Source: Escherichia phage LF82-10
Sequence record: PV660453
Reading direction: 5' to 3' (one strand)
Length of the DNA: 52,895 nucleotides
The translations under genes and the position numbers were made by a program. The notes beneath the pieces were generated by a model. It was not told where the DNA came from and ran no database searches. It saw nothing but the letters and a program-made list of their open reading frames with translations. Position 1 is the first letter of the stretch, and each line of letters starts with the position of its first letter. This document shows positions 23,013 through 52,385 of the stretch, in pieces.

Positions 23013-23498
23013 ATGCCGCACATCATCACAGGTGAGATCAAAAAAGCCCCGTACACCAAAGACGGAAGCAACAATAACGGGCGATGGAAAATGTACATTG
23101 TCGATCTGAGTGAGCGCATGAAAGTGCGCAACCCTGACACACAGGCCGATGAAGTTGTTTACACAAACTACAAGGCAACCTTCTTTGCAAAAGAAAACGT
23201 CATGCAGTGGTACGATGAAGCGTTCCAGGTTGGCAAGGTAATCAGCGTAACGTGTGACACGCTGCAAATCACCAGCCGAGATCACAACGGCAATACGTAT
23301 CTTACGGCTGAAATGATCCGGCCTCAACTGACCTTCAGCCAGCGAGAGGCTCAGCAGCAGGGATGGGGGCAACCACAGCAGCCGCAAGGCAATCAGCAAC
23401 AAAGCCAGCACAGACCACCACAGCAGCGACCACAGCAGCGACCACAGCAGCAACAGCCACAGCAGGGAAATCAGTTTGACGATGACATTCCATTCTGA
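23013..23498 (+). CDS. ssb: single-stranded DNA-binding protein
   Basis: 161 aa ending in the canonical acidic SSB tail DDDIPF, preceded by Gln/Pro-rich linker. Confidence 0.8.
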   Translation: MPHIITGEIKKAPYTKDGSNNNGRWKMYIVDLSERMKVRNPDTQADEVVYTNYKATFFAKENVMQWYDEAFQVGKVISVTCDTLQITSRDHNGNTYLTAEMIRPQLTFSQREAQQQGWGQPQQPQGNQQQSQHRPPQQRPQQRPQQQQPQQGNQFDDDIPF

Positions 23499-23503
23499 CG
23501 GGT

Positions 23504-23536
23504 AAAAATAAAGGAGCCTTTCGGCTCCTTTTTTAT
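23504..23536. terminator. bidirectional terminator between ssb and tail fibre gene
   Basis: AAAAATAAA-GGAGCC-TTTC-GGCTCC-TTTTTTATTT. Confidence 0.6.
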
Positions 23537-25899
23537 TTCAGCAATAACGACTCAAGTTTAGCAAGGCGCTCTTCCATTTCCTCCATTCTGTTACCCATGT
23601 AAACCATAGCACAGGCCATATCAGTAAGCATGACGTTTGAATCAAGAGCTAGCGTATCGTCCTTAAATCCAGTCTCGATCTGCCTGGCAACGTACTCCTC
23701 ACCATTCTCGTTGACTCCGATAACATCTTCAAAGATCGGAGCGCCAGGGACTACTTTCACATACTGACTATCAACTTTATTCAAGTCCTGAGCAATCAGA
23801 CCGAATCTCTGTGTGTCAGATCCCTTATACTTGAACATGGTTGGGAGCCACTGCATTACGCGATCATAGCTCTCCTTTCCTTCGGTGTATTTGATATCCC
23901 ACTTAAGATCCCGGTCAGACGTTGGCGCTTTCTGGAATGTATACCCCCCATCCCATCCTCCACCCTGACCCCATGAGATAATATCTGATGATGGTGCATG
24001 GAATTCAAATCCGCGATGGTACGCACCATCACCAAGCATCTTAATTACTGCGCGAGGCCATCCGTTGTTCCCGCTAGAAATCATACCAAGAGAGGTATTC
24101 ATTCGATACCCGCCAGTTGATGTGGTTGCCCCTGAGATCAATGAAGCATATCCGGCATCATTACCCGTTACATCACCAGCAAAGAACGTACTCCCCATGT
24201 AATCATTTGGCTGCGCCCAACCTCCTTGAGTTAACTTACCAAGAAACCCCCTTGGAGAAGATATGTGACCGCCGTATGAGTTTATGAATTTAAACTCCTT
24301 CCAGTCACTTCCTTGGTTGTTCACTCCGATCTTGAAGTGATCAATATCAGTGCCACTACCGCGAACCCCCCCAATCTGCCAGTAACCAGAGTACCAGTTA
24401 CCTTGAACCAGGTTAACCCAACTATTAACAGAGCCATCACCAGCAGCGTTTTGAATCAGGATGTTTTTGTTTCCGCCACTCTGAGTTGAAACAACGATCG
24501 ATTTACCCTGCTTTGCCTCTACGTTTCCGTTTGTTGCAACCAGAGCGCCGCCGCTAATCGTTCCGACGGCTGTCAGCGATGCAACTCCGGTAATGTTCCC
24601 CGCCTCATCAAACTGATAGTAGTTCCCCTTTCCTCCAGCCGTGTTTGCCGTGTGAATCGTTGTCTTTACAACGCCGCCTTGTAGTTCATTGTAAAATCTT
24701 GAGTTTGATTGCAGCGTTGCGCCGTCAGCAGAAAGCCTTTTACTCTCAATCAGCCCCCCACTAGTTGCTGAGCCAAGTGTTGTAGCCTCCACGCCTCCAA
24801 ATCTCACCGCTTGACCCGAGCCGATACCAAGATTGTTTCTTGCTCCGTCAGCAGTTGTTGATCCAGTGCCACCAGATCCGATAGGGATCGGGATTACATT
24901 TCCGTTACTATCCTGCCACTGGAAAATCCCATCATCGCCAATCGTCAGCCTTTTTGTTCTATCTGGCGTGCTAATGTAGTTACGCGTTCCAATGTGGCGC
25001 AGCCAGTCAAGATCAAGGTTCGTCCTCGCGGCTTGTACGTCAGTAAGATCAGATAGGTTATTTGCCTTCTTTAGCTGTTCGTCAGGGTTAGCCGTTGCTG
25101 CGCGGTCTGCTTCAGCCTTGGCTCGTGCTGCATCGTCACGAGCGGCGGCGGCAGATTGCCCGGCGCTGGTTTCGCTGTTTGCTGCATTCGTCTCGCTTAC
25201 CCTGGCGGCATCCTTGCTGGCTCCGGCTTGGGTTGCGGCAACTTCGGCGGCTTGACGATGCGCGGCAGCTTCGCCGTTAGATTGAGCGGCTGAGCTTGCG
25301 CTATTACCCGCATTTGTCTCGCTAGTCTTCGCATTGAATGCAGAATCGGCGGCAGCGTTCTTTGCGCTTGTTGCGGTTGCAGCGTCAGCGGCGGAGCTAG
25401 ATGCAGATGCGGCAGCGGCGTTTTTATCTTGCTGTGCAGACTGAGCAGATCCGGCGGCGGCGTTCTTGCTTGCCTCAGCTTCGTTTGCGTTAACTTCAGT
25501 ACGATCAGCATCAACGCGAACGGCAGACTGAAGATCTTTCAGCTCTTGCAGGTTAAAGTTCTTGAAGAAATCCATAGCCTCCTCGATCACAGTTTCCTTG
25601 CTTTGGTAGTAGCGCAGAGTTTCAGCCACATCTTGAGCAAGGCCATCAACAGTGATTGAGTCATGCAGCAGGATTACATAGTTCGTACCATCCGGCACAA
25701 CTGCATCATCCGTTTGGATCGCTCGCATTTCCGTGTCACTCACGATCGCGGAAATAGTAACCAGCGTTAGTGGTTGAGTTAAAAACACCATCGTTGCCCC
25801 AACGCGAATCAGAGACAGCTTGTCTTGCCATTTCGTATCAACGCCAGTTACAACGCCGTTAGCGGCCAATCCCGCCGTTCCTCTACGATAAATCGCCAT
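23533..25899 (-). CDS. tail fibre with C-terminal intramolecular chaperone (S74-like) domain
   Basis: ATG at 25899 (SD AGGTG); Ala/Ser/Asn-rich low-complexity segment; C-terminal region (DRDLKWDIKY...LIAQDLNKV...LAKLESLL) resembles auto-cleaving fibre chaperone domains. Confidence 0.75.
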   Translation of the reverse strand: MAIYRRGTAGLAANGVVTGVDTKWQDKLSLIRVGATMVFLTQPLTLVTISAIVSDTEMRAIQTDDAVVPDGTNYVILLHDSITVDGLAQDVAETLRYYQSKETVIEEAMDFFKNFNLQELKDLQSAVRVDADRTEVNANEAEASKNAAAGSAQSAQQDKNAAAASASSSAADAATATSAKNAAADSAFNAKTSETNAGNSASSAAQSNGEAAAHRQAAEVAATQAGASKDAARVSETNAANSETSAGQSAAAARDDAARAKAEADRAATANPDEQLKKANNLSDLTDVQAARTNLDLDWLRHIGTRNYISTPDRTKRLTIGDDGIFQWQDSNGNVIPIPIGSGGTGSTTADGARNNLGIGSGQAVRFGGVEATTLGSATSGGLIESKRLSADGATLQSNSRFYNELQGGVVKTTIHTANTAGGKGNYYQFDEAGNITGVASLTAVGTISGGALVATNGNVEAKQGKSIVVSTQSGGNKNILIQNAAGDGSVNSWVNLVQGNWYSGYWQIGGVRGSGTDIDHFKIGVNNQGSDWKEFKFINSYGGHISSPRGFLGKLTQGGWAQPNDYMGSTFFAGDVTGNDAGYASLISGATTSTGGYRMNTSLGMISSGNNGWPRAVIKMLGDGAYHRGFEFHAPSSDIISWGQGGGWDGGYTFQKAPTSDRDLKWDIKYTEGKESYDRVMQWLPTMFKYKGSDTQRFGLIAQDLNKVDSQYVKVVPGAPIFEDVIGVNENGEEYVARQIETGFKDDTLALDSNVMLTDMACAMVYMGNRMEEMEERLAKLESLLLK

Positions 25900-25922
25900 T
25901 GTCAACACCTCTTGTTAGTAAA

Positions 25923-25937
25923 TAGCACGAATTGCTA
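25923..25937 (+). promoter_or_regulatory. TAGCA-box (TAGCACGAATTGCTA) over predicted start site of tail fibre transcript
   Basis: minus-strand -10 TATAAT at 25944-25949 lies upstream of box; operator-like position. Confidence 0.45.
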
Positions 25938-25965
25938 AAACGCATTATATCAGGCATTCAGGCAA

Positions 25966-25990
25966 TAAAAAACCCTCCGAAGAGGGTTGT
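25966..25990 (-). terminator. terminator for primase transcript (minus strand)
   Basis: minus-strand reading CAACCCTCTTCGGAGGGTTTTTT. Confidence 0.5.
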
Positions 25991-27540: not shown

Positions 27541-29610
27541 ATGAAAATCAAGAGCATCAAGAAGCAGATTGAGGAGTTAGGCGAGGATAAGATCGCAGAG
27601 CTTCAAAAGAAATTCACTTTTGGTGACATTGTTCCTTATGCGTATCAGTGCGTCATGTACGACGAGATCGCAAAGCGCATTTCCGCATACAAACACCCAT
27701 TCTTTGTTAAGGCTTCCGTGTCGGCTGGCAAAACAGTTGGGTTTGCCATGGTGGCGGCGCGGTGCAGGGAAATGACTAGCGCAAAGTTTCCAAAGGGTTT
27801 ATCAATGGCAATCCTCGCTCGCCAGGGTGAGATCGTATCTCAGGATAGCCAGGAGCTAACAAACTTCGGCGTGCCGAATAGCGTTTACTGCGCCGGGCTT
27901 GGTACTAAATCTGCATACTTCCCGATCGTCGTTGGCTCTGAGGGTTCAGTTGCAAACGGGCTTTTCAAGGCTCTCGGAGACTTCGCGCCAATGGTTGTCG
28001 GCATCGACGAATGTCACCAGGTGGATTGGGAAGACCTTGCAGACTCGATCGAGAAGAACGAAAGCTATGAGGAAATGAGCAGACCAAAGGATGAGGCTTA
28101 CATGATCAATGGCGAAGTAGTCGATCGCGGGTTGAAGATATCAAGCCTCATGGAAACCCTGGGAACAGTTGCACCAGGTGCCGGGCGCTCTCAGTACACG
28201 ATAATCATTCGTGAGTTGCAGCGTCGATGCCTGGAAGTTCACGGAAAGGAACTACGCATATTCGGCATGACTGGTTCAGAGTTTCGCGGCACAACTCCGA
28301 TCCTTGTTGAGAATATGAAACTCAAAGGCTTCTGGCGCGAGCAGGTAACGAACATTGATACGAACTACCTCATTGAGTTTGGCTCGGTTGTTCCAACCGT
28401 CTTCGGCTCAACTGGCGGGTTAGGCTACGATCTGGAAGAGTTCAAAGCGTCAAGCGAAGATGGAACAAAAGACTTTGACGCGAAAGTAATGAAGAAGATG
28501 GAGGAGAAGATCCACAAGGATGCTTCCATGACGGCAAGAATTATGGCGGCGGTTGTGGAGGAAGCGAAGAAGCGAAACGGCGTTCTAATTACTTGCTCAG
28601 GGCAACGACACTGTAAAGAGGCGGCTAGTTACCTGCCTGAAGGCTCAACGTATGCGATCATTACTGAGAAGACCGGAACGAAACAGCGCCAGCAAATCCT
28701 TGATGATGCAAACCAGGGAAAGATAAAGTACATCTTCCAGGTTGTGGCATTGACGACTGGCGTTAACGTGCCGTTTTGGGATTTCTCCGTGATACTCCGT
28801 AAGATTGGCTCTCTCACATTGCTGATACAGTTGCTTGGGCGCGGAATGCGACTTTTAAAGGCGTGGCAAATCGCAATGGGGATGGTGAAGACAGATCACC
28901 TTGTTTGGGATTTTGCCGGAACTATGGACGAATTAGGCCAACTTTACTTTGACCCGATTCTTGAGGAAGCTCAGTATCAACGCCGTTTCGACTCGAAGAA
29001 GGAGCCTAAAAAATGCCCTATTTGCGGTCATGAAAACAGTTTCTTTGCTCGTCGCTGTATCAGTCGGGATTTGAACGGAAACAGATGTGAGTATTTCTGG
29101 AAGTCGAGAACGTGCGAGGATCAGGTTGACGATCGAACCGGGAAAGTTATTGTGAAGGGTTGCGGTGTTCAAAATGATGTTGTAGCTCGAATCTGTAGGG
29201 GTTGTGATGCTAGCCTAACAGATCCCAACGCCAACTTAACCGGGAAGGCGTACACAAAAAACGACTGGTGCCAGGTTCTCAGCTTTGAGGTTGGGCTTAC
29301 CAAAAACCAGACCGGGATCATTTATAAATATCGCTTGCGTGATATGCTCGGAGAGGAGTTTAACGCATACGAGAAGTTTTTCCCTGAGTCTCAGGCTCAG
29401 GTATGCCACACGATATGGAAAACAAAAGGCGTGCTTCCACACGTTCACGATTCGAAAGTGGCAAAGCTTATGGCAGCATACAGGAGCGCGCGCCTGATCT
29501 TACAAAACGCGCACCACATCGCGCACCCGGTACGGGTTACGCATCGCAAAAACGCAAAGGGCGAAGATATCATTTCGCGCAAGGACTTCGGTCTTAATGA
29601 GGGCTTATGA
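27541..29610 (+). CDS. ATP-dependent DNA helicase (SF2, DExH)
   Basis: 689 aa; Walker A SVSAGKTVG, DECH box (GIDECHQV); C-terminal Cys-rich zinc-finger-like cluster. Confidence 0.8.
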   Translation: MKIKSIKKQIEELGEDKIAELQKKFTFGDIVPYAYQCVMYDEIAKRISAYKHPFFVKASVSAGKTVGFAMVAARCREMTSAKFPKGLSMAILARQGEIVSQDSQELTNFGVPNSVYCAGLGTKSAYFPIVVGSEGSVANGLFKALGDFAPMVVGIDECHQVDWEDLADSIEKNESYEEMSRPKDEAYMINGEVVDRGLKISSLMETLGTVAPGAGRSQYTIIIRELQRRCLEVHGKELRIFGMTGSEFRGTTPILVENMKLKGFWREQVTNIDTNYLIEFGSVVPTVFGSTGGLGYDLEEFKASSEDGTKDFDAKVMKKMEEKIHKDASMTARIMAAVVEEAKKRNGVLITCSGQRHCKEAASYLPEGSTYAIITEKTGTKQRQQILDDANQGKIKYIFQVVALTTGVNVPFWDFSVILRKIGSLTLLIQLLGRGMRLLKAWQIAMGMVKTDHLVWDFAGTMDELGQLYFDPILEEAQYQRRFDSKKEPKKCPICGHENSFFARRCISRDLNGNRCEYFWKSRTCEDQVDDRTGKVIVKGCGVQNDVVARICRGCDASLTDPNANLTGKAYTKNDWCQVLSFEVGLTKNQTGIIYKYRLRDMLGEEFNAYEKFFPESQAQVCHTIWKTKGVLPHVHDSKVAKLMAAYRSARLILQNAHHIAHPVRVTHRKNAKGEDIISRKDFGLNEGL

Positions 29611-30026
29611 TTACTGACAAGGGCGATTATCTTGAATATTACACCCCTGATAAGGGGTGTACCCTGAAGGAAGAGACTCACCAGGTTAACGGCGTTTCGT
29701 GGCTAAAGTACCACTACCCAAACCTGATGTTTTGGCACACGGTCAACGAGGGGCAGAAGCACATAAACACAGCCCTAAAAGATGAGCAAGCCGGGCTTAA
29801 GAAAGGTGTCAGCGACTTCGTATTTCTGATTGGTCATTTCGATCGGAAATATTGCTTTGGGGCTATTGAGCTGAAGCGCACCAACAAGAGCGGAAAGTAC
29901 AAGGCATCACCAGTCAGTAAGGAGCAGAAAGCTTTCCTTCTCGGTGTGCGTGAACGTGGGGGGTTCGCGGCTGTGGCTTACGGATTCGAGGAGTTGAAGA
30001 AAGCCGTTGAGGACATGATGAAATAG
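29607..30026 (+). CDS. VRR-NUC domain nuclease
   Basis: 139 aa; PD-(D/E)XK-like core (DFVFLIG...GAIELK) consistent with VRR-NUC; overlaps helicase stop. Confidence 0.55.
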   Translation: MITDKGDYLEYYTPDKGCTLKEETHQVNGVSWLKYHYPNLMFWHTVNEGQKHINTALKDEQAGLKKGVSDFVFLIGHFDRKYCFGAIELKRTNKSGKYKASPVSKEQKAFLLGVRERGGFAAVAYGFEELKKAVEDMMK

Positions 30027-31893: not shown

Positions 31894-33030
31894 ATGTCAC
31901 TGAAGAAAATCACCGACGAGCAGTTAAACGCCGAGCGAGAGTCGGGTAAAACTTACCGCCAGATCGCGGAAGAGTACGGAATGAACATACGCACCGTCGA
32001 GGCTCGCGGCGCACGCCTGGCTAAGAAAGGTTTCGGTCACGGTAACGGCGATGCATCGCGATTTGTTCCAGAAGGCTTCATGGTTAAGGGCACATCAACC
32101 ATGCACCGCGCGAACGGAGAGGTTATCGTTAGCTGGACGAAAACCAATCAGGATCATGAGAAGTTAGCCGCCATGCTTGAGCACGCGATCGAGGCGTTTT
32201 GCGTTGAGCTTCCACGCGCAGCCGCTACACCTTCCAACGTTGGTGAGGTGATGGAGAACCAGCTCGCGCTTTATCCTGTATTCGATCTGCATATCGGTGC
32301 AATGGCTCATAAGCATGAGTGCGGCGAGAACTACTCAACCGATATTGCCGAGAAGGTTTTGGGCGATTTCTTCAAGTACGCTGTGAACGTTGCGCCGAAG
32401 GCGAAGAAGGCGGTTGTGCTGGTTGGCGGTGACTACCTCCACTCTGACGGCCTGGACGCTGTAACACCCGCAAGCGGTCACGTTCTGGATCAGGACTCAC
32501 GTTACGCTAAGCTGGTTCACGTTGCCATTCGCTCACTCCGTCGCGGCGTTGCGCTTCTGCTTGATAAGCATGAAGAGATTGAGATCCAGATTATCGAAGG
32601 CAACCACGATCAGGCGGGTATGATTTGGCTACGCGCTGCAATGGCGGCATACTTCGAAGATGAGCCGCGCGTCACGGTTGACACATCGCCTATGATCCTT
32701 CACCGTACCAAGTGGGGCAAAACGCTGTTAGGCTACACTCACGGTCACACGATGAAGAAAGCAGAAACCCGCCTCCAGGCGCTGGCTACTGACTTCCGTT
32801 CTGAGTTCGGCACGAGTGAATTCGTTTATACTCACTCAGGGCATTGGCATCACCAGACGCTTACAGAGCACACCTTAGGCATTGACGAGGTTCACGGTCA
32901 GTTAGGTGCCAAAGATGCGTATGCGGCTCGCGGTGGATGGCGCTCATATCGCCAGGCGGCGGTAATTGTCTATGATAAAGAATTTGGCGAGGTAGGCCGA
33001 TTCGTTTATCGTCCTCAGATGAGCAAATAG
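31894..33030 (+). CDS. HTH domain fused to calcineurin-like metallophosphoesterase
   Basis: 378 aa; N-terminal HTH-like KTYRQIAEEYGMNIRTVEARGARL; phosphoesterase motifs DLH, GGDYLHSD, GNHD, HGH, GHWH in canonical order. Confidence 0.7.
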   Translation: MSLKKITDEQLNAERESGKTYRQIAEEYGMNIRTVEARGARLAKKGFGHGNGDASRFVPEGFMVKGTSTMHRANGEVIVSWTKTNQDHEKLAAMLEHAIEAFCVELPRAAATPSNVGEVMENQLALYPVFDLHIGAMAHKHECGENYSTDIAEKVLGDFFKYAVNVAPKAKKAVVLVGGDYLHSDGLDAVTPASGHVLDQDSRYAKLVHVAIRSLRRGVALLLDKHEEIEIQIIEGNHDQAGMIWLRAAMAAYFEDEPRVTVDTSPMILHRTKWGKTLLGYTHGHTMKKAETRLQALATDFRSEFGTSEFVYTHSGHWHHQTLTEHTLGIDEVHGQLGAKDAYAARGGWRSYRQAAVIVYDKEFGEVGRFVYRPQMSK

Positions 33031-38239: not shown

Positions 38240-38479
38240 TTAAAATGGAATTTCATCTTTGCAAGCTTGACATACTTTCTCAGGCGTGCATGAGCAGTTA
38301 TAAGCGCAAACAGAAACCGGATTATTGCCGATAACCTTGCTTTCTGATTGGTGATCCATTCCACCAAGAGCATCATCAAGCTCTATGCACCCATAGGCAA
38401 CCATCATTGCCCACTCGTCGTTAAGCCCGGCATCCTTAGCCGCGCGGTGGCGGCTCCAGAAGTTATTGACGTTCTTCAT
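38240..38479 (-). CDS. hypothetical Cys-containing small protein
   Basis: in-frame ATG (MKNVNNFW...) with SD GGGAG inside ORF-track 38240..38770; 79 aa. Confidence 0.35.
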   Translation of the reverse strand: MKNVNNFWSRHRAAKDAGLNDEWAMMVAYGCIELDDALGGMDHQSESKVIGNNPVSVCAYNCSCTPEKVCQACKDEIPF

Positions 38480-45842: not shown

Positions 45843-46052
45843 ATGGCAATACCAACATTTACCCGTAAGCAGTTTACCGAGTTCTTCCGCCTGGTTAACA
45901 TGAGCGGCAGCCCGCACCAGATGGATCGCATCACTAGCCGCCTTGAAATGCCCAAGTTCGTTGAGGCAGTCGGGCGCAAGAATTGCAATAGCATGTGGGC
46001 GCTGATTAATGGCGGCGTTACACCATCAACCTTAGACCCGGAGATCAAATAA
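45843..46052 (+). CDS. hypothetical protein
   Basis: 69 aa, SD AGAGGA. Confidence 0.4.
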   Translation: MAIPTFTRKQFTEFFRLVNMSGSPHQMDRITSRLEMPKFVEAVGRKNCNSMWALINGGVTPSTLDPEIK

Positions 46053-46417
46053 TGCGCATTCGTTTATTAAACCCGTCAATCTATACCGGAATGGAGCTGA
46101 GCAAATACAACTCAGATCCTATGCACGACGAAAGCAACTACCCGGTTATTGTTGAAGCGTCAGAGAAGGATCACAACGGCTTTGAATTCACAGGCCGGGC
46201 GCATGTAAGCTACAAGGAGCTTGATCGCGTATTCCCATACGGATTCGAGCGCGACAAGTGCGAACCTGGGAAGGGCATTGGCTGGTGGAATAACCCGGTA
46301 AAACGAGACGCTAAAACGCCTCAAATCTCATGGGAGCCAGTATCACCGTTTGACTACTGGAACAAGCTGAAATCATCCCGCCCGGTTGGTGACGTGGTTC
46401 CGGCGGGGTACTTATGA
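46052..46417 (+). CDS. hypothetical protein
   Basis: 121 aa; TAATG coupling. Confidence 0.4.
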   Translation: MRIRLLNPSIYTGMELSKYNSDPMHDESNYPVIVEASEKDHNGFEFTGRAHVSYKELDRVFPYGFERDKCEPGKGIGWWNNPVKRDAKTPQISWEPVSPFDYWNKLKSSRPVGDVVPAGYL

Positions 46418-46665
46418 GAAAATTAACCCGCGATGAGGAGCGTTTTAAATCGTGCCTCAAGAAGTCAAAGCAGAAGGCTATCATCATGGATCGCAACTCA
46501 TCCGGTCAAGCCTTCTGGCATTTCCCGGACGTTGAGCAAACGGGATGGCACCCGGACACTATACGAGATCTCATGCGTGATGATCTTGTTGAGTTCGGGT
46601 TAATGGATAGTGGGCACCCTAACGGACAGCCGCGATACAGTAACGCAAAGTGGATAGGGGGTTGA
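46414..46665 (+). CDS. hypothetical protein
   Basis: 83 aa; ATGA coupling. Confidence 0.4.
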   Translation: MRKLTRDEERFKSCLKKSKQKAIIMDRNSSGQAFWHFPDVEQTGWHPDTIRDLMRDDLVEFGLMDSGHPNGQPRYSNAKWIGG

Positions 46666-46666
46666 T

Positions 46667-46855
46667 ATGCAGATCTACAAATCGCCAGGCGGAGCAAGAT
46701 ATGTCGTTGTTGATGGCGTTGTTTACTGCAAGCCAGCAGATGGAAGCATGGTTTACAGGCCGCGCATGACGGTTGAGCGATATCTTGAGCTTATCGCTGG
46801 CGGTCTTCTGACATTCCATTGCGTTATTCGCCCGGTAATGTTCAAAAAGCACTAA
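46667..46855 (+). CDS. hypothetical protein
   Basis: 62 aa. Confidence 0.35.
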   Translation: MQIYKSPGGARYVVVDGVVYCKPADGSMVYRPRMTVERYLELIAGGLLTFHCVIRPVMFKKH

Positions 46856-46861
46856 TTGCTA
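46847..46861 (+). promoter_or_regulatory. TAGCA-box variant (AAGCACTAATTGCTA)
   Basis: -10 TATAGT 46884-46889 inside inverted repeat AAGAGGCA/TGCCTCTT. Confidence 0.5.
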
Positions 46862-46927
46862 AAACTTGCTAAGAGGCATTTGTTATAGTGCCTCTTGTCG
46901 AGTTAACACAAATACAGAGGATTTGAA

Positions 46928-47632
46928 ATGAGCATTCAACGCTACTACCCTGAAGTGAAGTACACAGTGCGGGAAACTCGCGTTAATATGGCTCCACACG
47001 AGCGCGGAAGCTATGTGACCTATGAATCACACATCGAAGAATTGCGCCGCGTACAGGCCGAATTAGACGCCTTAAAAGCGATGCAAAAAAGCGATTTTTT
47101 CTATCACCTAAAGCCAGTCTTCGAAAAGGCGCTTGAAGAGGCGATTGCTATCGTCGTGAAGCAAGCCAGCCAATCAGTTTTCAAGGTTGACGCTGAGGCG
47201 CTAATTGCTGCTGACGTTGGCCGTTGGATGGAGAAGCACATGAACGAGCGCGCCGGATTTGCAACTGGCAGCCTGTTTGTGGGTGATGTAGAGGTTGATT
47301 TCGACAACAACAAAGTCAAGATCACCGATGCGCTAATCAAGAGCGGCGTTGTGACTGAAAGCGAATTATTCTCTTTCCCTAAGGCACGAAAGAACATTGT
47401 CGTTTGCACAAGCGCCGATGAAGGTAGCGGTTTCACTATTGGAAAGAAATACGCATTCGATCGCAATGAAGGGAACATTATCCGAATCTGCCAGGATGAT
47501 TTTGTTTCAGATCTCGCAGAGGATGATTGCTGGATTGCAAGCCGCCGCCGAAACCTGGTAAGCGGTGAATTCAGATACTTCTTACAGGGGCATACAGAAG
47601 GCAAGCGCGCATCTTTCGAGATCGTTGAATAG
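46928..47632 (+). CDS. hypothetical protein
   Basis: 234 aa; contains internal CT...GKKY motif of the MKxKC family; stop TAG embedded in box. Confidence 0.45.
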   Translation: MSIQRYYPEVKYTVRETRVNMAPHERGSYVTYESHIEELRRVQAELDALKAMQKSDFFYHLKPVFEKALEEAIAIVVKQASQSVFKVDAEALIAADVGRWMEKHMNERAGFATGSLFVGDVEVDFDNNKVKITDALIKSGVVTESELFSFPKARKNIVVCTSADEGSGFTIGKKYAFDRNEGNIIRICQDDFVSDLAEDDCWIASRRRNLVSGEFRYFLQGHTEGKRASFEIVE

Positions 47633-47644
47633 CACGAATTGTTA
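47630..47644 (+). promoter_or_regulatory. TAGCA-box (TAGCACGAATTGTTA)
   Basis: -10 TATCAT 47667-47672 inside inverted repeat GGCATGTG/CATGTGCC. Confidence 0.55.
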
Positions 47645-47702
47645 AACGGGCATGTGTTCCGACTGGTATCATGTGCCAACACAAACAAGCAAGGGGCTTT
47701 AA

Positions 47703-47870
47703 ATGTTCGAAGAAAAGAAACACAGGCCGGAACAAGCTTACTCAAGGGTATCACGCACCGTTAAAGAGCGTAGGCGCTGGGTTAAGTATTTCATGAATCA
47801 AGGCCACACCAGATCGGTTGCGATTGGCCTGGCTAAGTGGGCAACAAACAACTACAACGGGAAAAACTGA
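47703..47870 (+). CDS. hypothetical basic small protein
   Basis: 55 aa; stop overlaps next start; below ORF-track cut-off. Confidence 0.3.
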   Translation: MFEEKKHRPEQAYSRVSRTVKERRRWVKYFMNQGHTRSVAIGLAKWATNNYNGKN

Positions 47871-48502
47871 TGAACTTTCAAATGTACACTATGATCAAGC
47901 ATCACTTACTTACTCATCCAGATCAGCCAGTCTACATCTTCGACTATGACGGCACGCTTTCGGATGGCTCTCACCGACTGGACAAGTTGCCAACAAAAGA
48001 TTTGCACCTCACCGAAAGCTGGGAAGAGTTCAATCGCCTTGCTTCATTCGATGAGCCGATCGAAACAACCATTCAGGTGATGAATTCACTTTATAAGGCT
48101 GGCGCTTTCGTTATCGTGTTAACCGGGCGCGCCGATAGCGTTGTTGAAGAGTCAACACAATGGCTGCATGATGCTGGGGCGAAATATACAGTGATGGTGA
48201 TGCGTGGGCGTGACGACAATCGCAAGGACACGATCATCAAGGAGGAATTCTTGCGCTACATCGGACTTGAGCGAATTACAGCGGCGTGGGATGATAGCCC
48301 AAAAGTGATCGAGCATTTCCGATCGCTGGGCATCACAACCTACCAGGTTTGTGATTATGGCGATAAGACTCACGCGCATCTACAGTCACACGGCGTGAAA
48401 GATGCTGGCGGAGAGTGTGAGCATATTTGGGAGCGTCACAGTATTGGTGACGATTATTATGAATGCTGTGTTTCATGCGGCAGATCAAGAGGCATTAAGT
48501 AA
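47870..48502 (+). CDS. HAD-family phosphatase (T4 Pnk 3'-phosphatase-domain-like)
   Basis: 210 aa; HAD motif I FDYDGTL; later segments (VLTGRAD, RGRDDNRKDTIIKEEF, AWDDSPKVIEHFRSLGITTYQV) resemble the T4 polynucleotide kinase phosphatase domain from memory. Confidence 0.6.
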   Translation: MNFQMYTMIKHHLLTHPDQPVYIFDYDGTLSDGSHRLDKLPTKDLHLTESWEEFNRLASFDEPIETTIQVMNSLYKAGAFVIVLTGRADSVVEESTQWLHDAGAKYTVMVMRGRDDNRKDTIIKEEFLRYIGLERITAAWDDSPKVIEHFRSLGITTYQVCDYGDKTHAHLQSHGVKDAGGECEHIWERHSIGDDYYECCVSCGRSRGIK

Positions 48503-49110
48503 TGGCAACTATCATCATTCTGAATGCGCCGCCGCGCGCCGGGAAAGACACGATCGCGAAAATCATCGACGAGCAATACGGCTTGCCAGTTGTGAGCTTC
48601 AAAACTCCGATGTTCAACATTGCTCGCGGCATCTTGGGCGAAGCGGATTTTAAAGAGTTCATGGCGGTTTACGAAACAGACCGCAAGGACACACAGCCGT
48701 TAAGTATTCTGCATGGCAGCACTTGCCGCGAGTTTATGATCTGGATTAGCGAATCCGTGATTAAGCCTCATTTCGGCAAGAAGCATTTCGGCTGGCTTAT
48801 GGCTGATTTGCTCAGCGAAATGGAGGATGATGTTGATCTCACAATTTGCAGCGATGGCGGGTTCCCGGATGAGGTAGAGGCGTTGATTGACTTCGGGCAC
48901 CGTGTCAAGCTGGTTCGTATGCACCGTGAAGGCTTCGACTTCTCGAAAGATAGCCGTGACTACATCTACCTTTCCGAAGAGTACAAGAGCAAGCCTGGTG
49001 TTGTTGAGTTCGATCTGACATTGCAGGACGGTTGCCCTAATCTGGCTGCTGAGACTATCGCGTCATTGTTCATTGCCCATCATAAACCAGATAACGAGAT
49101 CCCTTGGTAA
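48502..49110 (+). CDS. P-loop kinase (T4 gp1 dNMP-kinase-like)
   Basis: 202 aa; Walker A LNAPPRAGKDT and later ICSDGGFPDEVEA resemble T4 dNMP kinase; start overlaps phosphatase stop (TAATG). Confidence 0.55.
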   Translation: MATIIILNAPPRAGKDTIAKIIDEQYGLPVVSFKTPMFNIARGILGEADFKEFMAVYETDRKDTQPLSILHGSTCREFMIWISESVIKPHFGKKHFGWLMADLLSEMEDDVDLTICSDGGFPDEVEALIDFGHRVKLVRMHREGFDFSKDSRDYIYLSEEYKSKPGVVEFDLTLQDGCPNLAAETIASLFIAHHKPDNEIPW

Positions 49111-49111
49111 A

Positions 49112-49126
49112 TAGCACTTTTTGTTA
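49112..49126 (+). promoter_or_regulatory. TAGCA-box (TAGCACTTTTTGTTA) fused to terminator-like hairpin
   Basis: 41 bp identical (inverted) to 37282-37322; hairpin CCCGCTTCGGCGGG 49129-49142 then TTTTGTTATTC. Confidence 0.5.
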
Positions 49127-49183
49127 AACCCGCTTCGGCGGGTTTTGTTATTCTTGCTTTAACGAAACGAAATGGAGTGAAGA

Positions 49184-49414
49184 ATGAAAACTTTATCAGA
49201 GCTGAAGTCGATCGCGGCTGACTTGCAGGAGCGAATGAAGCCACTAAACCACAAGCTGGAAAACTCGCGCATTACTATAGCCTCAAGAATGTCTATCGAG
49301 TGCTCACTGCGCGAACTTAAAATCATGTGGCATGATGCCATGTGCGACGTTCACGCTCACCCTGAGTACGAAGGTGAGTTTAAATTCCAGAAAGAAAACA
49401 ACCCATACCGATAA
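49184..49414 (+). CDS. hypothetical protein
   Basis: 76 aa. Confidence 0.4.
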   Translation: MKTLSELKSIAADLQERMKPLNHKLENSRITIASRMSIECSLRELKIMWHDAMCDVHAHPEYEGEFKFQKENNPYR

Positions 49415-49424
49415 GGATTCAATA

Positions 49425-49721
49425 ATGAACACTATCAAAAAGTTGACTCCAAACATGGCAACCAAAATCAAGTACGAGATCCCGGAGGATGGCACATTCT
49501 TAGCCGTCTGGACTTATCGCGAGATCCCGTACTCCGGTACTTATCAATGGCGAAACGGCGAGCTTGCCGTGTGGGTTGATGGCGTTGGCTGGGAAATTGC
49601 CGGGCATGGAGCGGCGGAGGACTATTACGATTTCAACTGCCTCGTGTCTATGGCTAGTGGTGAGAATTACGGCGGTGCTTGTCACTTTGTTGCGGTTGTA
49701 GTGGTTGAGGAAACAGCGTGA
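49425..49721 (+). CDS. hypothetical protein
   Basis: 98 aa from in-frame ATG (MNTIKK...). Confidence 0.4.
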   Translation: MNTIKKLTPNMATKIKYEIPEDGTFLAVWTYREIPYSGTYQWRNGELAVWVDGVGWEIAGHGAAEDYYDFNCLVSMASGENYGGACHFVAVVVVEETA

Positions 49722-49891
49722 AGACTTTTATTATTTTCCTAGTTGGCGCTTGCATGGTTAGCGTTTCTGATAACTTCACAGTTTTCGTTGGCGCTGCGAT
49801 GGTGTCGTGGGCTTACTACCGATGCGGAAAGGCTGACGGAATAGCGGAAGGTAAACGCCAGGCGCTGGCATCCGGCACTAAGTTAAAGTAG
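49718..49891 (+). CDS. small membrane protein (GTG start)
   Basis: 57 aa, two hydrophobic segments; GTGA overlap with upstream stop; TAG embedded in box 49889-49903. Confidence 0.25.
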   Translation: MKTFIIFLVGACMVSVSDNFTVFVGAAMVSWAYYRCGKADGIAEGKRQALASGTKLK

Positions 49892-49903
49892 CACGATTTG
49901 TTA
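49889..49903 (+). promoter_or_regulatory. TAGCA-box (TAGCACGATTTGTTA)
   Basis: -10 TGGTATAAT 49923-49931 inside inverted repeat GGGGAT/ATCCCC. Confidence 0.55.
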
Positions 49904-49961
49904 AAAGGGGATTCGTCCTGACTGGTATAATCCCCACATCAACCAAGCAGAGGAAACGATC

Positions 49962-50414
49962 ATGAAATTAGTTTGCACATCATCACGCGTCAAAAGCTTC
50001 ACCGTTGGAAAGAAATATGAAAGCCGCACAGTCGAGCATTACGGAATTGTTACGCACGAGGTGGACGGAGACACCGCTTGCGGCTGGGTGATTAACGATG
50101 GCCTGAGCATTTGCGGAGCTGATCACTCAAACCCAATGGCAACTTTCCGCAAGGATAAGAGCATGATGAAGATGCTTGTTCGCGCATTCGTATTGGTTGC
50201 AAAGGCTCGCGGTTGGGGTGATAGCAAGAGCGGGGCTTACAAATCCTGGAGCGGCACACCTTACAAAAACTCCAGAGATTGGGCGCGAGCTATTGCCTTC
50301 AGCTACGATGTTGGGAGTGTTGCGCGCGAGATAATTGATGAAGATCCTAACGTGAAACTCATCGACCAGGAAGCGGTAAACCTGTTTGCCGAAAACGAGA
50401 TCGACAACTGGTAA
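49962..50414 (+). CDS. hypothetical protein (MKLVCT, MKxKC-family)
   Basis: 150 aa; SD GAGGAA. Confidence 0.45.
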   Translation: MKLVCTSSRVKSFTVGKKYESRTVEHYGIVTHEVDGDTACGWVINDGLSICGADHSNPMATFRKDKSMMKMLVRAFVLVAKARGWGDSKSGAYKSWSGTPYKNSRDWARAIAFSYDVGSVAREIIDEDPNVKLIDQEAVNLFAENEIDNW

Positions 50415-50476
50415 TTTGCGCAAGGCCGTTTATAATAGCGGCCTTACTCAGACAAACCAATCAGAAGGAAATCACC

Positions 50477-50905
50477 ATGAAATTACGTTGCACATTCCTT
50501 GAGCCAGCTTTCGCAAAAGCTCTGGCTGAGTTCTACACCATCGGCAAAACTTACGCCGCATCCATCAAGCCGGGATCAAAGGTTGGCGCTGTGCTGGTGG
50601 AGTCAAACGAAGGCAATGAAGGCGATCAGCTTGCAGCAGTTCCGAGCCGCTCAGGGTTCGAGGTTCAAATTAAGAACCAAATTCCGATCGCAAAGTTCGA
50701 GGTTGTTGGCAAGCGTGCGGTGAAGCTTGTTAAGACTGAGAAGCGCGTAACGCTGAAACTTGATGGCGTGGGGAAATCAGATAAGCGCCGATTCCGCCGT
50801 GTTTGCCGCCAGTATCGAAAGTTGAAATTCATCAACCCTGGATTCTATTATGATCTGGAATCCGATCGCCACATGGCTAAACTTGCGCGACATCACCGCC
50901 GATAG
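50477..50905 (+). CDS. hypothetical basic protein (MKLRCT, MKxKC-family)
   Basis: 142 aa; SD AGAAGGAA. Confidence 0.45.
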   Translation: MKLRCTFLEPAFAKALAEFYTIGKTYAASIKPGSKVGAVLVESNEGNEGDQLAAVPSRSGFEVQIKNQIPIAKFEVVGKRAVKLVKTEKRVTLKLDGVGKSDKRRFRRVCRQYRKLKFINPGFYYDLESDRHMAKLARHHRR

Positions 50906-52297: not shown

Positions 52298-52385
52298 GGA
52301 AGGTTGGCAGAGTGGACGATCGCGCACGGTTGCTAACCGTCAAGCCGGAAACGGCTCAAGGGTTCGAATCCCTTACCTTCCACCA
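52298..52385 (+). tRNA. type II tRNA, probably tRNA-Ser (anticodon GCU)
   Basis: perfect 7-bp acceptor stem GGAAGGT/ACCTTCC, discriminator A and encoded CCA; T-arm AAGGG-TTCGAAT-CCCTT; long variable arm GCCG-GAAA-CGGC; anticodon loop TTGCTAA; one C-C mismatch at base of anticodon stem. Confidence 0.7.

What the first reader, a model, noticed from the sequence alone, without database searches (positions are those of the whole stretch)
47870..49110. Translationally coupled Pnk-type 3'-phosphatase and dNMP-kinase-like kinase as separate genes
The HAD phosphatase (FDYDGTL plus downstream segments resembling the T4 Pnk phosphatase domain) is followed with a TAATG overlap by a kinase whose P-loop (PPRAGKDT) and later motifs resemble T4 gp1 dNMP kinase rather than the Pnk kinase domain. 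This split, order-swapped pairing could be an end-healing module against host anticodon nucleases (a tRNA gene lies 3 kb downstream) or a nucleotide salvage or modified-nucleotide pathway. No RNA ligase partner (KxDG motif of appropriate size) was seen.
Basis: partly seen in the sequence, partly recalled or inferred. Interest (0 to 1): 0.55.

Follow-up and report, generated by a model that had tools for sequence, protein, structure and literature searches.

The report
Phage phosphatase plus nucleotide kinase pair
A T1-like coliphage carries two overlapping genes, a T4 Pnk-type 3'-phosphatase without its kinase half and a T4 gp1-like deoxynucleotide kinase, a pair that is common and already annotated in such phages, most likely recycles host DNA into nucleotides, and has never been tested biochemically.

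Summary
ORF1 (47870-48502) is a stand-alone HAD phosphatase of the T4 polynucleotide kinase/phosphatase type. It passes the Pfam HAD_PNKP threshold, all tested catalytic residues are present, and its best structural match is the T4 Pnkp phosphatase. ORF2 (48502-49110) overlaps it by one base (TAATG). It is a divergent relative of T4 gp1 dNMP kinase: same PHROG, profile-profile E 2.7e-13, best structural match 1DEK. It shares only the P-loop with the Pnk kinase domain.

[quoted passage not shown] Two papers have noted the pair in Drexlerviridae.

The phosphatase lies upstream of the kinase, in that order, in 75 of 80 related viral loci. Two natural phosphatase-kinase fusions exist. The kinase also occurs alone in nucleotide-metabolism and replication modules, and once fused to dUTPase. 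The phage has no ligase and no Pnk-type kinase.

The best reading is a host-DNA salvage cassette, not tRNA repair. This is an ordinary finding with an untested function. Side observations are an SSB-tail-like C-terminus on the kinase and a zinc-ribbon tail on the phosphatase.

The parts
47703..47870 (+). Upstream 55-aa basic ORF whose TGA stop overlaps the ORF1 ATG (TGATG); function unknown
   Evidence: sequence; annotated as a hypothetical protein in PV660454.1; no Pfam or PHROG match
47870..48502 (+). Stand-alone HAD phosphatase of the T4 Pnk 3'-phosphatase type (210 aa). Conserved residues are D25-x-D27-G-T, T85-G-R87, D116-N-R-K-D120, K124 and D141-D142.
48416..48499 (+). C-terminal Cys/His-rich extension of the phosphatase (C183-x-H185 ... 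C200-x-x-C203), a zinc-ribbon-like module joined to the core by a low-confidence linker
   Evidence: alignment A2; 31 of 120 homologs carry CxH...CxxC after aa 150 and some carry two copies; AF2 predicts three short strands at pLDDT about 67-73
48487..48504 (+). Gene junction: Shine-Dalgarno-like AAGAGG (48487-48492), the TAA stop of ORF1 (48500-48502) and the ATG of ORF2 (48502-48504), giving a TAATG one-base overlap
   Evidence: the same -1 overlap occurs in 16 of 75 related loci, and 27 of 75 have a junction within 10 nt
48502..49110 (+). P-loop kinase of the T4 gp1 dNMP-kinase superfamily (202 aa). Conserved residues are G14-K15-D16-T17, K34, R76, M79, D118-G-G-F, E124, R139 and D150-S-R152-x-Y154.
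49090..49107 (+). Extreme C-terminus of the kinase, D-N-E-I-P-W, after a low-confidence (disordered) linker; it resembles the SSB C-terminal tip DDDIPF
   Evidence: alignment A1; the last 12 residues have mean pLDDT 54-62; 67 of 120 close homologs end in acidic-[IL]-P-W, and the phage SSB ends in FDDDIPF
49126..49155 (+). Intrinsic-terminator-like hairpin (AAACCCGC-TTCG-GCGGGTTT followed by a T-rich tail) 16 nt after the kinase stop codon

Best explanation
This is a two-gene nucleotide-salvage and DNA-end-processing cassette of a T1-like phage.

ORF1 is a stand-alone acyl-phosphatase homologous to the 3'-phosphatase half of T4 Pnkp. I infer that it removes 3'-phosphates from DNA fragments or from 3'-deoxynucleotides released while the host chromosome is degraded. 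That would give 3'-OH ends that exonucleases can digest to 5'-dNMPs.

ORF2 is a divergent gp1-type (d)NMP kinase. I infer that it converts those 5'-dNMPs to dNDPs using ATP. Host nucleoside diphosphate kinase would then make dNTPs for phage DNA synthesis, which relies on the host polymerase because T1-like phages encode none.

The two genes are expressed together from one transcript, and the ORF2 start overlaps the ORF1 stop.

Shown here: the family and fold of both proteins, retention of the catalytic residues, conserved gene order, and natural fusions. Inferred: the substrates, and the link to host-DNA recycling.
For: Phosphatase:
- Pfam HAD_PNKP above threshold.
- hhalign to T4 Pnk residues 158-297 at E 1.6e-11. 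D25, D27, R87, D120, K124, D141 and D142 align with T4 D165, D167, R213, D254, K258, D277 and D278, and all are invariant in 40 homologs.

Kinase:
- Same PHROG as T4 gp1.
- hhalign to the gp1 family at 98% probability, E 2.7e-13.
- R76, M79, D118, E124 and D150 align with the gp1 residues R132, M135, D175, E181 and D204, which PMC10653934 lists as dNMP-site residues.
- Viral structural neighbours are mostly annotated as dNMP kinases.

Nucleotide-metabolism context of the kinase family:
- Fused to dUTPase inside a replication module (P0468).
- Next to thymidylate synthase and ribonucleotide reductase in PVP-SE1, and next to ribonucleotide reductase and a pyrophosphatase in Colwellia phage 9A, with no phosphatase nearby.

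Coupling of the two genes:
- The phosphatase lies upstream on the same strand in 75 of 80 IMG/VR loci.
- The pair is also adjacent in an Era103-like podophage and in Yersinia phage vB_YenM_25.
- Two phosphatase-kinase fusion proteins exist in the same order.
- A phrog_704 'DNA repair exonuclease' sits directly upstream of the phosphatase in 23 of 75 loci.

Biology: T1 and TLS degrade the host chromosome and reuse its nucleotides, and they lack a DNA polymerase gene (PMC11447400). PMC13164509 independently proposes that the pair enhances nucleotide supply.
Against: - No enzyme assay exists for either protein or for any close homolog that I could find.
- The kinase fails the Pfam DNMK threshold (12 bits against 27.1).
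- The kinase replaces three gp1 dNMP-site residues: R177 becomes G120, K37 becomes F38 and H206 becomes R152. Its acceptor substrate could therefore differ.
- A need for 3'-phosphate removal during host-DNA breakdown is hypothetical. The nuclease that degrades host DNA in T1-like phages is unidentified (PMC11447400), and common exonucleases leave 3'-OH ends.
- E. coli already has four NMP kinases and its own 3'-phosphatase activities (my own knowledge), so the benefit may be only quantitative.
- In many T1-like phages 100-2000 nt of other ORFs separate the two genes, so tight translational coupling is not required.
Confidence: 0.6

Rival explanations
1. The pair is a bipartite, non-orthologous Pnkp. 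The Pnk-type phosphatase heals 3'-phosphate or 2',3'-cyclic-phosphate ends, and the gp1-like kinase has been recruited to phosphorylate 5'-OH polynucleotide ends. A ligase (host LigA, or a phage ligase where one is present) could then reseal DNA or RNA broken by host defence nucleases.
For: - The phosphatase belongs to the Pnkp end-healing family and keeps its catalytic residues.
- Conserved adjacency and true fusions with a kinase mimic the phosphatase-kinase architecture of end-healing enzymes.
- In Era103-like phages the order is exonuclease, phosphatase, kinase, DNA ligase. The kinase also abuts or lies near a ligase in Marinomonas CB5A, Colwellia 9A and the P0468 contig.
- A zinc-ribbon tail on the phosphatase could target nucleic-acid ends.
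Against: - The kinase shares only the P-loop with the T4 Pnk kinase. Its best matches, T4 gp1 dNMP kinase, an AMP-bound adenylate-kinase-related protein and phosphomevalonate kinase, act on or bind phosphorylated small molecules, not 5'-OH polynucleotide ends.
- Several gp1 dNMP-pocket residues are kept.
- The kinase family occurs alone among thymidylate synthase, ribonucleotide reductase and dUTPase genes.
- This phage has no ligase.
- From my own knowledge, E. coli has no Rnl-type RNA ligase, and RtcB needs the 3'-phosphate that the phosphatase would remove.
- A kinase next to a ligase also occurs in T7, where gene 1.7 encodes a nucleotide kinase (my own knowledge).
Confidence: 0.12
2. The two enzymes are independent and merely co-transcribed early genes. 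The kinase is a general dNMP kinase. The phosphatase has an unrelated target, for example removing a 3'-phosphorylated nucleotide signal or metabolite or repairing damaged phage DNA, with no pathway shared between them.
For: - The kinase is found without the phosphatase in at least seven other phage lineages.
- In many T1-like genomes the two genes are separated by inserted ORFs. T1 and KanT1 have an HNH endonuclease gene between them (PMC13164509).
- The phosphatase has its own highly conserved cap insert (H35-R-L..L-P..H-L-T-E-S-W..F-N), which is unlike the corresponding T4 Pnk segment and suggests a distinct specificity.
Against: - The phosphatase-then-kinase order is kept across Drexlerviridae, Kagunavirus-like phages, an Autographiviridae genus and a Yersinia phage.
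- Two independent cluster representatives are single-chain fusions of the two domains, and one of these genes was read on three contigs.
Confidence: 0.2
3. The pair is a counter-defence against nucleotide-depleting immunity. The kinase re-phosphorylates the dNMPs produced when host systems hydrolyse dNTPs, or clears signalling dNMPs such as m6-dAMP. The phosphatase destroys a nucleotide second messenger.
For: There is only indirect context. A PUA-Cal-HAD defence senses m6-dAMP from phage-induced host DNA degradation and degrades dNTPs to dNMPs (bioRxiv 10.64898/2026.01.15.699771). A dNMP kinase would act directly on those products.
Against: - Neither protein matches any PADLOC defence or anti-defence model.
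- No escape-mutant or genetic data involve these genes in the papers I searched.
- This explanation overlaps with plain salvage and adds no feature that the sequence requires.
Confidence: 0.08

Closest known systems
T4 polynucleotide kinase/phosphatase (Pnkp, pseT), C-terminal 3'-phosphatase domain (PDB 1ltq, 5uj0)
   Different: ORF1 has no N-terminal Pnk kinase domain. It carries a longer, highly conserved insert after motif I (HRLxxLPTKDLHLTESWxEFN). It also has a CHCC zinc-ribbon-like tail that T4 lacks. No Rnl ligase partner is present in the phage.
T4 gp1 deoxynucleoside monophosphate kinase (PDB 1dek)
   Same: Same PHROG. Profile-profile E 2.7e-13. Best structural match. G-K-D-T P-loop. 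Equivalents of R132, M135, D175, E181 and D204 are retained.
   Different: Only 16% identity. ORF2 is 40 residues shorter and lacks the gp1 insert of about 50 residues. It is below the Pfam DNMK threshold. R177 becomes G, K37 becomes F and H206 becomes R. A clade-specific acidic-IPW C-terminal tail is present.
Capnocytophaga gingivalis Pnkp1 of the Pnkp1-Rnl-Hen1 RNA repair complex (PDB 4xrp)
   Different: Pnkp1 is a kinase-phosphatase fusion that works with an RNA ligase and Hen1. None of those partners is present here.
Mammalian PNKP (PDB 3zvl)
   Same: Phosphatase-before-kinase order, as in this gene pair and in the fusions P0345 and P0351.
Pseudomonas putida dNMPK PP_1964 and phage T5 dNMP kinase
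   Same: These are gp1-type dNMP kinases from mobile elements or phages. PP_1964 has genetic evidence for TMP kinase activity, and the paper cites T5 biochemistry showing activity on all four dNMPs (PMC10653934).
   Different: I did not compare their sequences with ORF2 directly. PP_1964 keeps R200 (equivalent to gp1 R177), which ORF2 lacks.
PNK plus dNMP kinase genes of phages T1, TLS and KanT1 (Drexlerviridae)
   Same: Orthologous genes in the same order. T1 is locus L030. They are described as Gp09 and Gp14 in TLS (PMC11447400) and as PNK, HNH and dNMP kinase in KanT1 and T1 (PMC13164509).
   Different: In T1, about 480 nt including other ORFs separate the two genes, whereas here they overlap by one base. 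T1's kinase lacks the acidic-IPW tail (it ends ...IAATFINK).

Membership tests
HAD_PNKP (Pnk-type 3'-phosphatase, Pfam PF25109) | Score above the Pfam gathering threshold | tested here: met
   63 bits against a cut-off of 27.6, E 4.3e-17, covering profile positions 3-139 of 143
HAD_PNKP (Pnk-type 3'-phosphatase, Pfam PF25109) | HAD motif I D-x-D-x-T (nucleophile and general acid) | tested here: met
   D25-Y-D27-G-T29. D25, D27 and G28 are invariant in 40 homologs. D25 and D27 align with T4 D165 and D167.
HAD_PNKP (Pnk-type 3'-phosphatase, Pfam PF25109) | Equivalents of T4 Pnkp R213, D254, K258, D277 and D278 (their essentiality in T4 is recalled from Wang and Shuman 2002 and Zhu et al. 2007, my own knowledge) | tested here: met
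   R87, D120, K124, D141 and D142 align with those residues, and all are invariant
HAD_PNKP (Pnk-type 3'-phosphatase, Pfam PF25109) | Equivalent of T4 R176 in the segment after motif I | tested here: inconclusive
   R36 is invariant, but the alignment of this segment contains a gap and a long insert, so the equivalence is uncertain
HAD_PNKP (Pnk-type 3'-phosphatase, Pfam PF25109) | Fold of the T4 Pnkp phosphatase domain | tested here: met
HAD_PNKP (Pnk-type 3'-phosphatase, Pfam PF25109) | 3'-phosphatase activity on DNA or RNA ends or on 3'-dNMPs | not testable with these tools
   Needs an enzyme assay
Bifunctional Pnkp end-healing / RNA repair system (T4 Pnkp plus Rnl type) | Pnk-type 5'-OH polynucleotide kinase domain | tested here: not met
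Bifunctional Pnkp end-healing / RNA repair system (T4 Pnkp plus Rnl type) | A partner RNA (or DNA) ligase encoded by the same element | tested here: not met
   No ligase appears among the 92 annotated features of the nearly identical record. Pfam scans of the larger unnamed proteins found none.
T4 gp1-type dNMP kinase (Pfam DNMK PF21448 / phrog_139) | Score above the Pfam DNMK gathering threshold | tested here: not met
   12.2 bits against a cut-off of 27.1, E 0.14, P-loop only
T4 gp1-type dNMP kinase (Pfam DNMK PF21448 / phrog_139) | Homology to gp1 by profile methods | tested here: met
   phrog_139 at E 2.7e-42, with T4 gp1 in the same PHROG at E 1.8e-65 over the same profile region. hhalign of A1 against A3 gives 98% probability, E 2.7e-13, over 146 columns.
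T4 gp1-type dNMP kinase (Pfam DNMK PF21448 / phrog_139) | gp1 fold | tested here: met
T4 gp1-type dNMP kinase (Pfam DNMK PF21448 / phrog_139) | P-loop of the form x-x-x-x-G-K-D-T | tested here: met
   A9-P-P-R-A-G14-K15-D16-T17. G14, K15 and D16 are invariant and align with gp1 G13, K14 and D15.
T4 gp1-type dNMP kinase (Pfam DNMK PF21448 / phrog_139) | dNMP-binding residues of 1DEK (K37, R68, R132, M135, D175, R177, E181, D204, H206) as listed in PMC10653934 | tested here: inconclusive
   Five are retained: R76 for R132, M79 for M135, D118 for D175, E124 for E181 and D150 for D204. Three are changed: F38 for K37, G120 for R177 and R152 for H206. The R68 region did not align reliably.
T4 gp1-type dNMP kinase (Pfam DNMK PF21448 / phrog_139) | ATP-dependent phosphorylation of dNMPs | not testable with these tools
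   Needs an enzyme assay or complementation of E. coli tmk, gmk, cmk or adk mutants

The most novel reading that the evidence does not exclude
The phosphatase-kinase cassette is a non-orthologous replacement of Pnkp. Here a gp1-like kinase would have evolved to act on 5'-OH polynucleotide ends, or on 3'-nucleotides. In this clade the enzyme would also be delivered to its site of action by a C-terminal mimic of the SSB tail (acidic-I-P-W against SSB's DDDIPF), which docks onto host SSB-partner proteins such as exonuclease I, RecJ or the chi subunit of Pol III. The phosphatase would be targeted by its zinc-ribbon tail. That would make it a new kind of phage DNA-end repair or nucleotide-channelling machine that hijacks the SSB interactome.
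Probability: 0.1. Interest if true: 0.65.

Novelty: new member of a known kind. Interest (0 to 1): 0.3.

Why it matters
Practically, the finding corrects a widespread annotation. The 'polynucleotide kinase' of T1-like and many other phages has no kinase domain; it is only the 3'-phosphatase half of Pnkp.

Biologically, T1-like phages recycle the host chromosome, yet no genes have been assigned to that process. A conserved cassette of phosphatase and dNMP kinase, with an exonuclease directly upstream in 23 of 75 related loci, is an obvious and cheap candidate to test.

The family is large: about 3,700 clusters at 50% identity match the kinase profile. One characterisation would therefore inform many genomes.

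If the SSB-tail-like C-terminus is functional, it would be an example of a metabolic enzyme plugged into the host replisome or repair hub. That remains speculative.

Tried and rejected
- **Pfam and NCBIfam on the kinase.** Only sub-threshold P-loop hits came back (AAA_17, CPT, DNMK, adenylate kinases). They are uninformative alone.
- **PDB sequence searches with the kinase or its family profile.** These returned only P-loop matches to AAA+ ATPases and adenylate kinases. Structure and profile-profile comparison were needed.
- **hhalign of the kinase family against the single gp1 sequence.** It aligned only 35 residues. It worked only after I built a gp1 family alignment.
- **PADLOC.** No defence-system model matched either protein.
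- **Neighbouring ORFs at 46052-47870 and 49184-50905.** No Pfam families matched, and the only PHROG hits were families of unknown function. The local context adds nothing.
- **Ligase search.** None was found.
- **Literature searches for biochemical or genetic tests of the T1-type genes.** I found only genome-annotation statements. The retron Eco2, DefensePredictor and PUA-Cal-HAD papers mention related terms but not these genes.
- **tRNA-Ser(GCU) as a clue to anticodon-nuclease evasion.** Rejected for lack of any link. It lies 3.2 kb away, beyond a terminator-like hairpin and 11 annotated small unrelated ORFs.
- **Identity of the phrog_704 'DNA repair exonuclease'.** It has no Pfam match and no PDB sequence match and remains unresolved.
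- **One failed call.** A coordinate error arose from an 84-base difference between the window and record PV660454.1 and was corrected.
Full report
**What is there.**
The window is a T1-like siphophage. The stretch 47000-50000 is 100% identical to Escherichia phages LF82-11, -12, -19 and -40. [quoted passage not shown] The window is not identical to LF82-11: it is 84 bases shorter, and the first difference is at 12421.

ORF1 runs from the ATG at 47870 to the TAA at 48500-48502 (210 aa). ORF2 runs from the ATG at 48502 to 49110 (202 aa). The junction is TAATG, with AAGAGG 9 nt upstream of the second ATG. A 55-aa ORF upstream (47703-47870) overlaps ORF1 in the same way (TGATG). A terminator-like hairpin follows ORF2 at 49126-49145. 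The genes therefore close a co-directional early-gene block.

**ORF1 is the phosphatase half of Pnkp and nothing more.**
- It exceeds the Pfam HAD_PNKP threshold (63 bits against 27.6) and matches phrog_415 at E 2.8e-62.
- Plain phmmer finds the T4 Pnkp phosphatase (5uj0, 1ltq) and Pnkp1 (4xrp) at about 1e-5 to 1e-6.
- A 40-sequence family profile aligns with T4 Pnk residues 158-297 at E 1.6e-11. I verified the T4 sequence as identical to 1ltq_A.
- D25, D27, R87, D120, K124, D141 and D142 fall on T4 D165, D167, R213, D254, K258, D277 and D278, and all are invariant in the family.

Two things differ from T4. The first is a longer, almost invariant insert after motif I (HRLxxLPTKDLHLTESWxEFN). 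The second is a C-terminal C-x-H...C-x-x-C module, present in 31 of 120 homologs and sometimes duplicated. There is no kinase domain, so the common label 'polynucleotide kinase' is a misnomer.

**ORF2 is a gp1-type kinase, not a Pnk-type one.**
Pfam and PDB sequence searches see only the P-loop. The other evidence is clear:
- ORF2 and T4 gp1 fall in phrog_139 over the same profile region. I verified the gp1 sequence as 100% identical to X03016.
- The two family profiles align at 98% probability, E 2.7e-13, over 146 columns.
- Against T4 Pnk only 34 P-loop columns align.
- BFVD neighbours are mostly annotated as dNMP kinases.

Using the 1DEK residue table in PMC10653934, the equivalents of R132, M135, D175, E181 and D204 are kept (R76, M79, D118, E124, D150). 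R177, K37 and H206 are replaced (G120, F38, R152). ORF2 is thus a divergent branch of the family. A nucleotide acceptor is likely but not proven.

**Is the pairing meaningful?**
- Among 80 IMG/VR loci that encode the kinase, 75 have the phosphatase upstream on the same strand within 2.7 kb.
- In 27 of those 75 the junction is within 10 nt, and in 16 it has the same one-base overlap.
- In T1 itself, other ORFs lie between the two genes (PMC13164509 reports an HNH gene there).
- These loci are mostly related phages, so the count overstates independence.
- The same order does recur outside the T1-like group: in Kagunavirus-like genomes of about 44 kb, in an Era103-like podophage (exonuclease, endonuclease VII, 'DNA repair exonuclease', phosphatase, kinase, ligase) and in Yersinia phage vB_YenM_25.
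- A scan of 1.84 billion cluster representatives found 3,722 relatives of the kinase. Two of them are single-chain HAD_PNKP-kinase fusions in the same order (P0345 and P0351). The P0345 gene was read on three contigs, one of them 60.8 kb long.

I therefore take the functional coupling as likely.

**What points to nucleotides rather than nucleic-acid ends.**
- The kinase occurs without any nearby phosphatase in Vequintavirinae, where it sits beside thymidylate synthase and ribonucleotide reductase.
- It occurs alone in Colwellia phage 9A, beside ribonucleotide reductase and a pyrophosphatase.
- It occurs alone in several Autographiviridae, a Kuravirus and a Saclayvirus.
- One relative is fused to dUTPase inside a replication module (P0468). 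Another structural neighbour is annotated as a nucleoside 2-deoxyribosyltransferase and is about 100 residues longer than the kinase.
- T1 and TLS degrade the host chromosome and reuse the nucleotides. They lack a polymerase gene, and the responsible genes are unknown (PMC11447400).
- From my own knowledge, T4 (gp1), T5 (Dnk) and T7 (gp1.7) all pair host-DNA breakdown with a phage dNMP kinase.
- A phrog_704 'DNA repair exonuclease' lies directly upstream of the phosphatase in 23 of 75 loci. In this window it is at 31894-33030.

My best model has four steps:
1. The phosphatase unblocks 3'-phosphate ends or dephosphorylates 3'-dNMPs.
2. Exonucleases release 5'-dNMPs.
3. The kinase makes dNDPs.
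4. Host Ndk makes dNTPs.

The folds, motifs, synteny and fusions are shown. The substrates and the salvage link are inferred. I put confidence at about 0.6.

**Why not tRNA repair.**
The end-healing system is defined by a Pnk-type 5'-kinase and a ligase. Both were looked for and neither is present. The tRNA-Ser(GCU) gene at 52298-52385 is separated from the pair by a terminator-like hairpin and 11 annotated unrelated small genes. From my own knowledge, E. coli's RtcB ligase needs the 3'-phosphate that this enzyme would remove.

A bipartite DNA-end-healing role remains possible, at about 0.12. Kinase-ligase proximity in four lineages favours it. It contradicts the kinase's family relationships.

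**Comparison with what is known, and novelty.**
Each protein belongs to a known family, and the phosphatase passes every membership test I could run. The kinase passes the profile and fold tests but fails the Pfam DNMK threshold and changes three pocket residues. The pair has been annotated for years, and the KanT1 and TLS papers comment on it; the KanT1 paper proposes 'enhancing nucleotide supply'. I found no biochemical or genetic test.

The finding is therefore a correct reading of an ordinary, already annotated cassette. What this analysis adds:
- a firm statement that the 'PNK' is phosphatase-only;
- the demonstration that the kinase is gp1-like;
- the natural fusions;
- the kinase-alone contexts.

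**Side observations.**
- The kinase ends in ...DNEIPW after a low-confidence linker. Of 120 close homologs, 67 end in acidic-[IL]-P-W, most often DDIPW. None of the 147 other 50%-identity representatives listed does, so the tail is specific to this clade.
- The phage's own SSB ends in FDDDIPF, identical to the SSB-Ct tip sequence DDDIPF given in PMC5872125, and a 78-aa ORF at 38240-38476 (-) ends in KDEIPF. This looks like mimicry of the SSB C-terminal docking peptide. It could tether the kinase to SSB-partner proteins. It is untested.

Noticed in passing
window 49090-49107 (+); compare 23013-23498 (+) and 38240-38476 (-): The kinase ends in D-N-E-I-P-W after a disordered linker, and 67 of 120 close homologs end in acidic-[IL]-P-W, mostly DDIPW. 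The phage SSB ends in FDDDIPF, and a 78-aa protein of unknown function (phrog_9323) ends in KDEIPF. These may be mimics of the SSB C-terminal docking peptide.
   Followed up: partly
window 48416-48499 (+): The phosphatase has a C-terminal C-x-H...C-x-x-C zinc-ribbon-like module. It is present in 31 of 120 homologs, duplicated in some (P0124, P0126, P0161, P0177) and absent from T1, Rtp and T4 Pnk.
   Followed up: partly
window 47703-47870 (+): A 55-aa basic ORF has a stop codon that overlaps the phosphatase start (TGATG), making a chain of three overlapping genes. It has no Pfam or PHROG match.
   Followed up: partly
window 31894-33030 (+); loci L006, L062-L081: The phrog_704 'DNA repair exonuclease' (378 aa) has no Pfam match and no PDB sequence match. 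A homolog sits directly upstream of the phosphatase-kinase pair in 23 of 75 related loci, but here it lies about 15 kb away, next to the lysis genes.
   Followed up: partly
L093 6001-7212; L094 6001-7122; protein P0351: Natural fusions exist. HAD_PNKP phosphatase plus this kinase occurs in one chain (P0345, 403 aa, on a 60.8-kb contig next to PAPS-reductase-like and Dam-like genes; P0351, 461 aa). The kinase is fused to dUTPase in P0468, downstream of DNA polymerase A, a 5'-3' exonuclease and a ligase-like gene.
   Followed up: yes
L091 4689-5582 (Kuravirus phage 1-6af): The kinase homolog is 298 aa long. Profile positions 161-188 match residues 46-73, ahead of the main match (positions 4-158 at residues 115-273). 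This suggests a permuted or partly duplicated arrangement.
   Followed up: no
window 52298-52385 (+): The phage's single tRNA gene, tRNA-Ser(GCU), lies among small ORFs of unknown function near the end of the window. I found no link to the pair.
   Followed up: partly
window 12421 and 23533-25899: The window is a close relative of LF82-11 (PV660454.1), not a copy. The first base difference is at 12421, in the tape-measure gene. The 84-base length difference maps inside the tail-fibre gene, which spans 23533-25983 in the record and 23533-25899 in the window.
   Followed up: partly
window 27541-29610 (+) and 29607-30026 (+): Two genes annotated as hypothetical proteins match known families. One is a 689-aa helicase-like protein (Helicase_C, ResIII). 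The other is a VRR-NUC nuclease.
   Followed up: no
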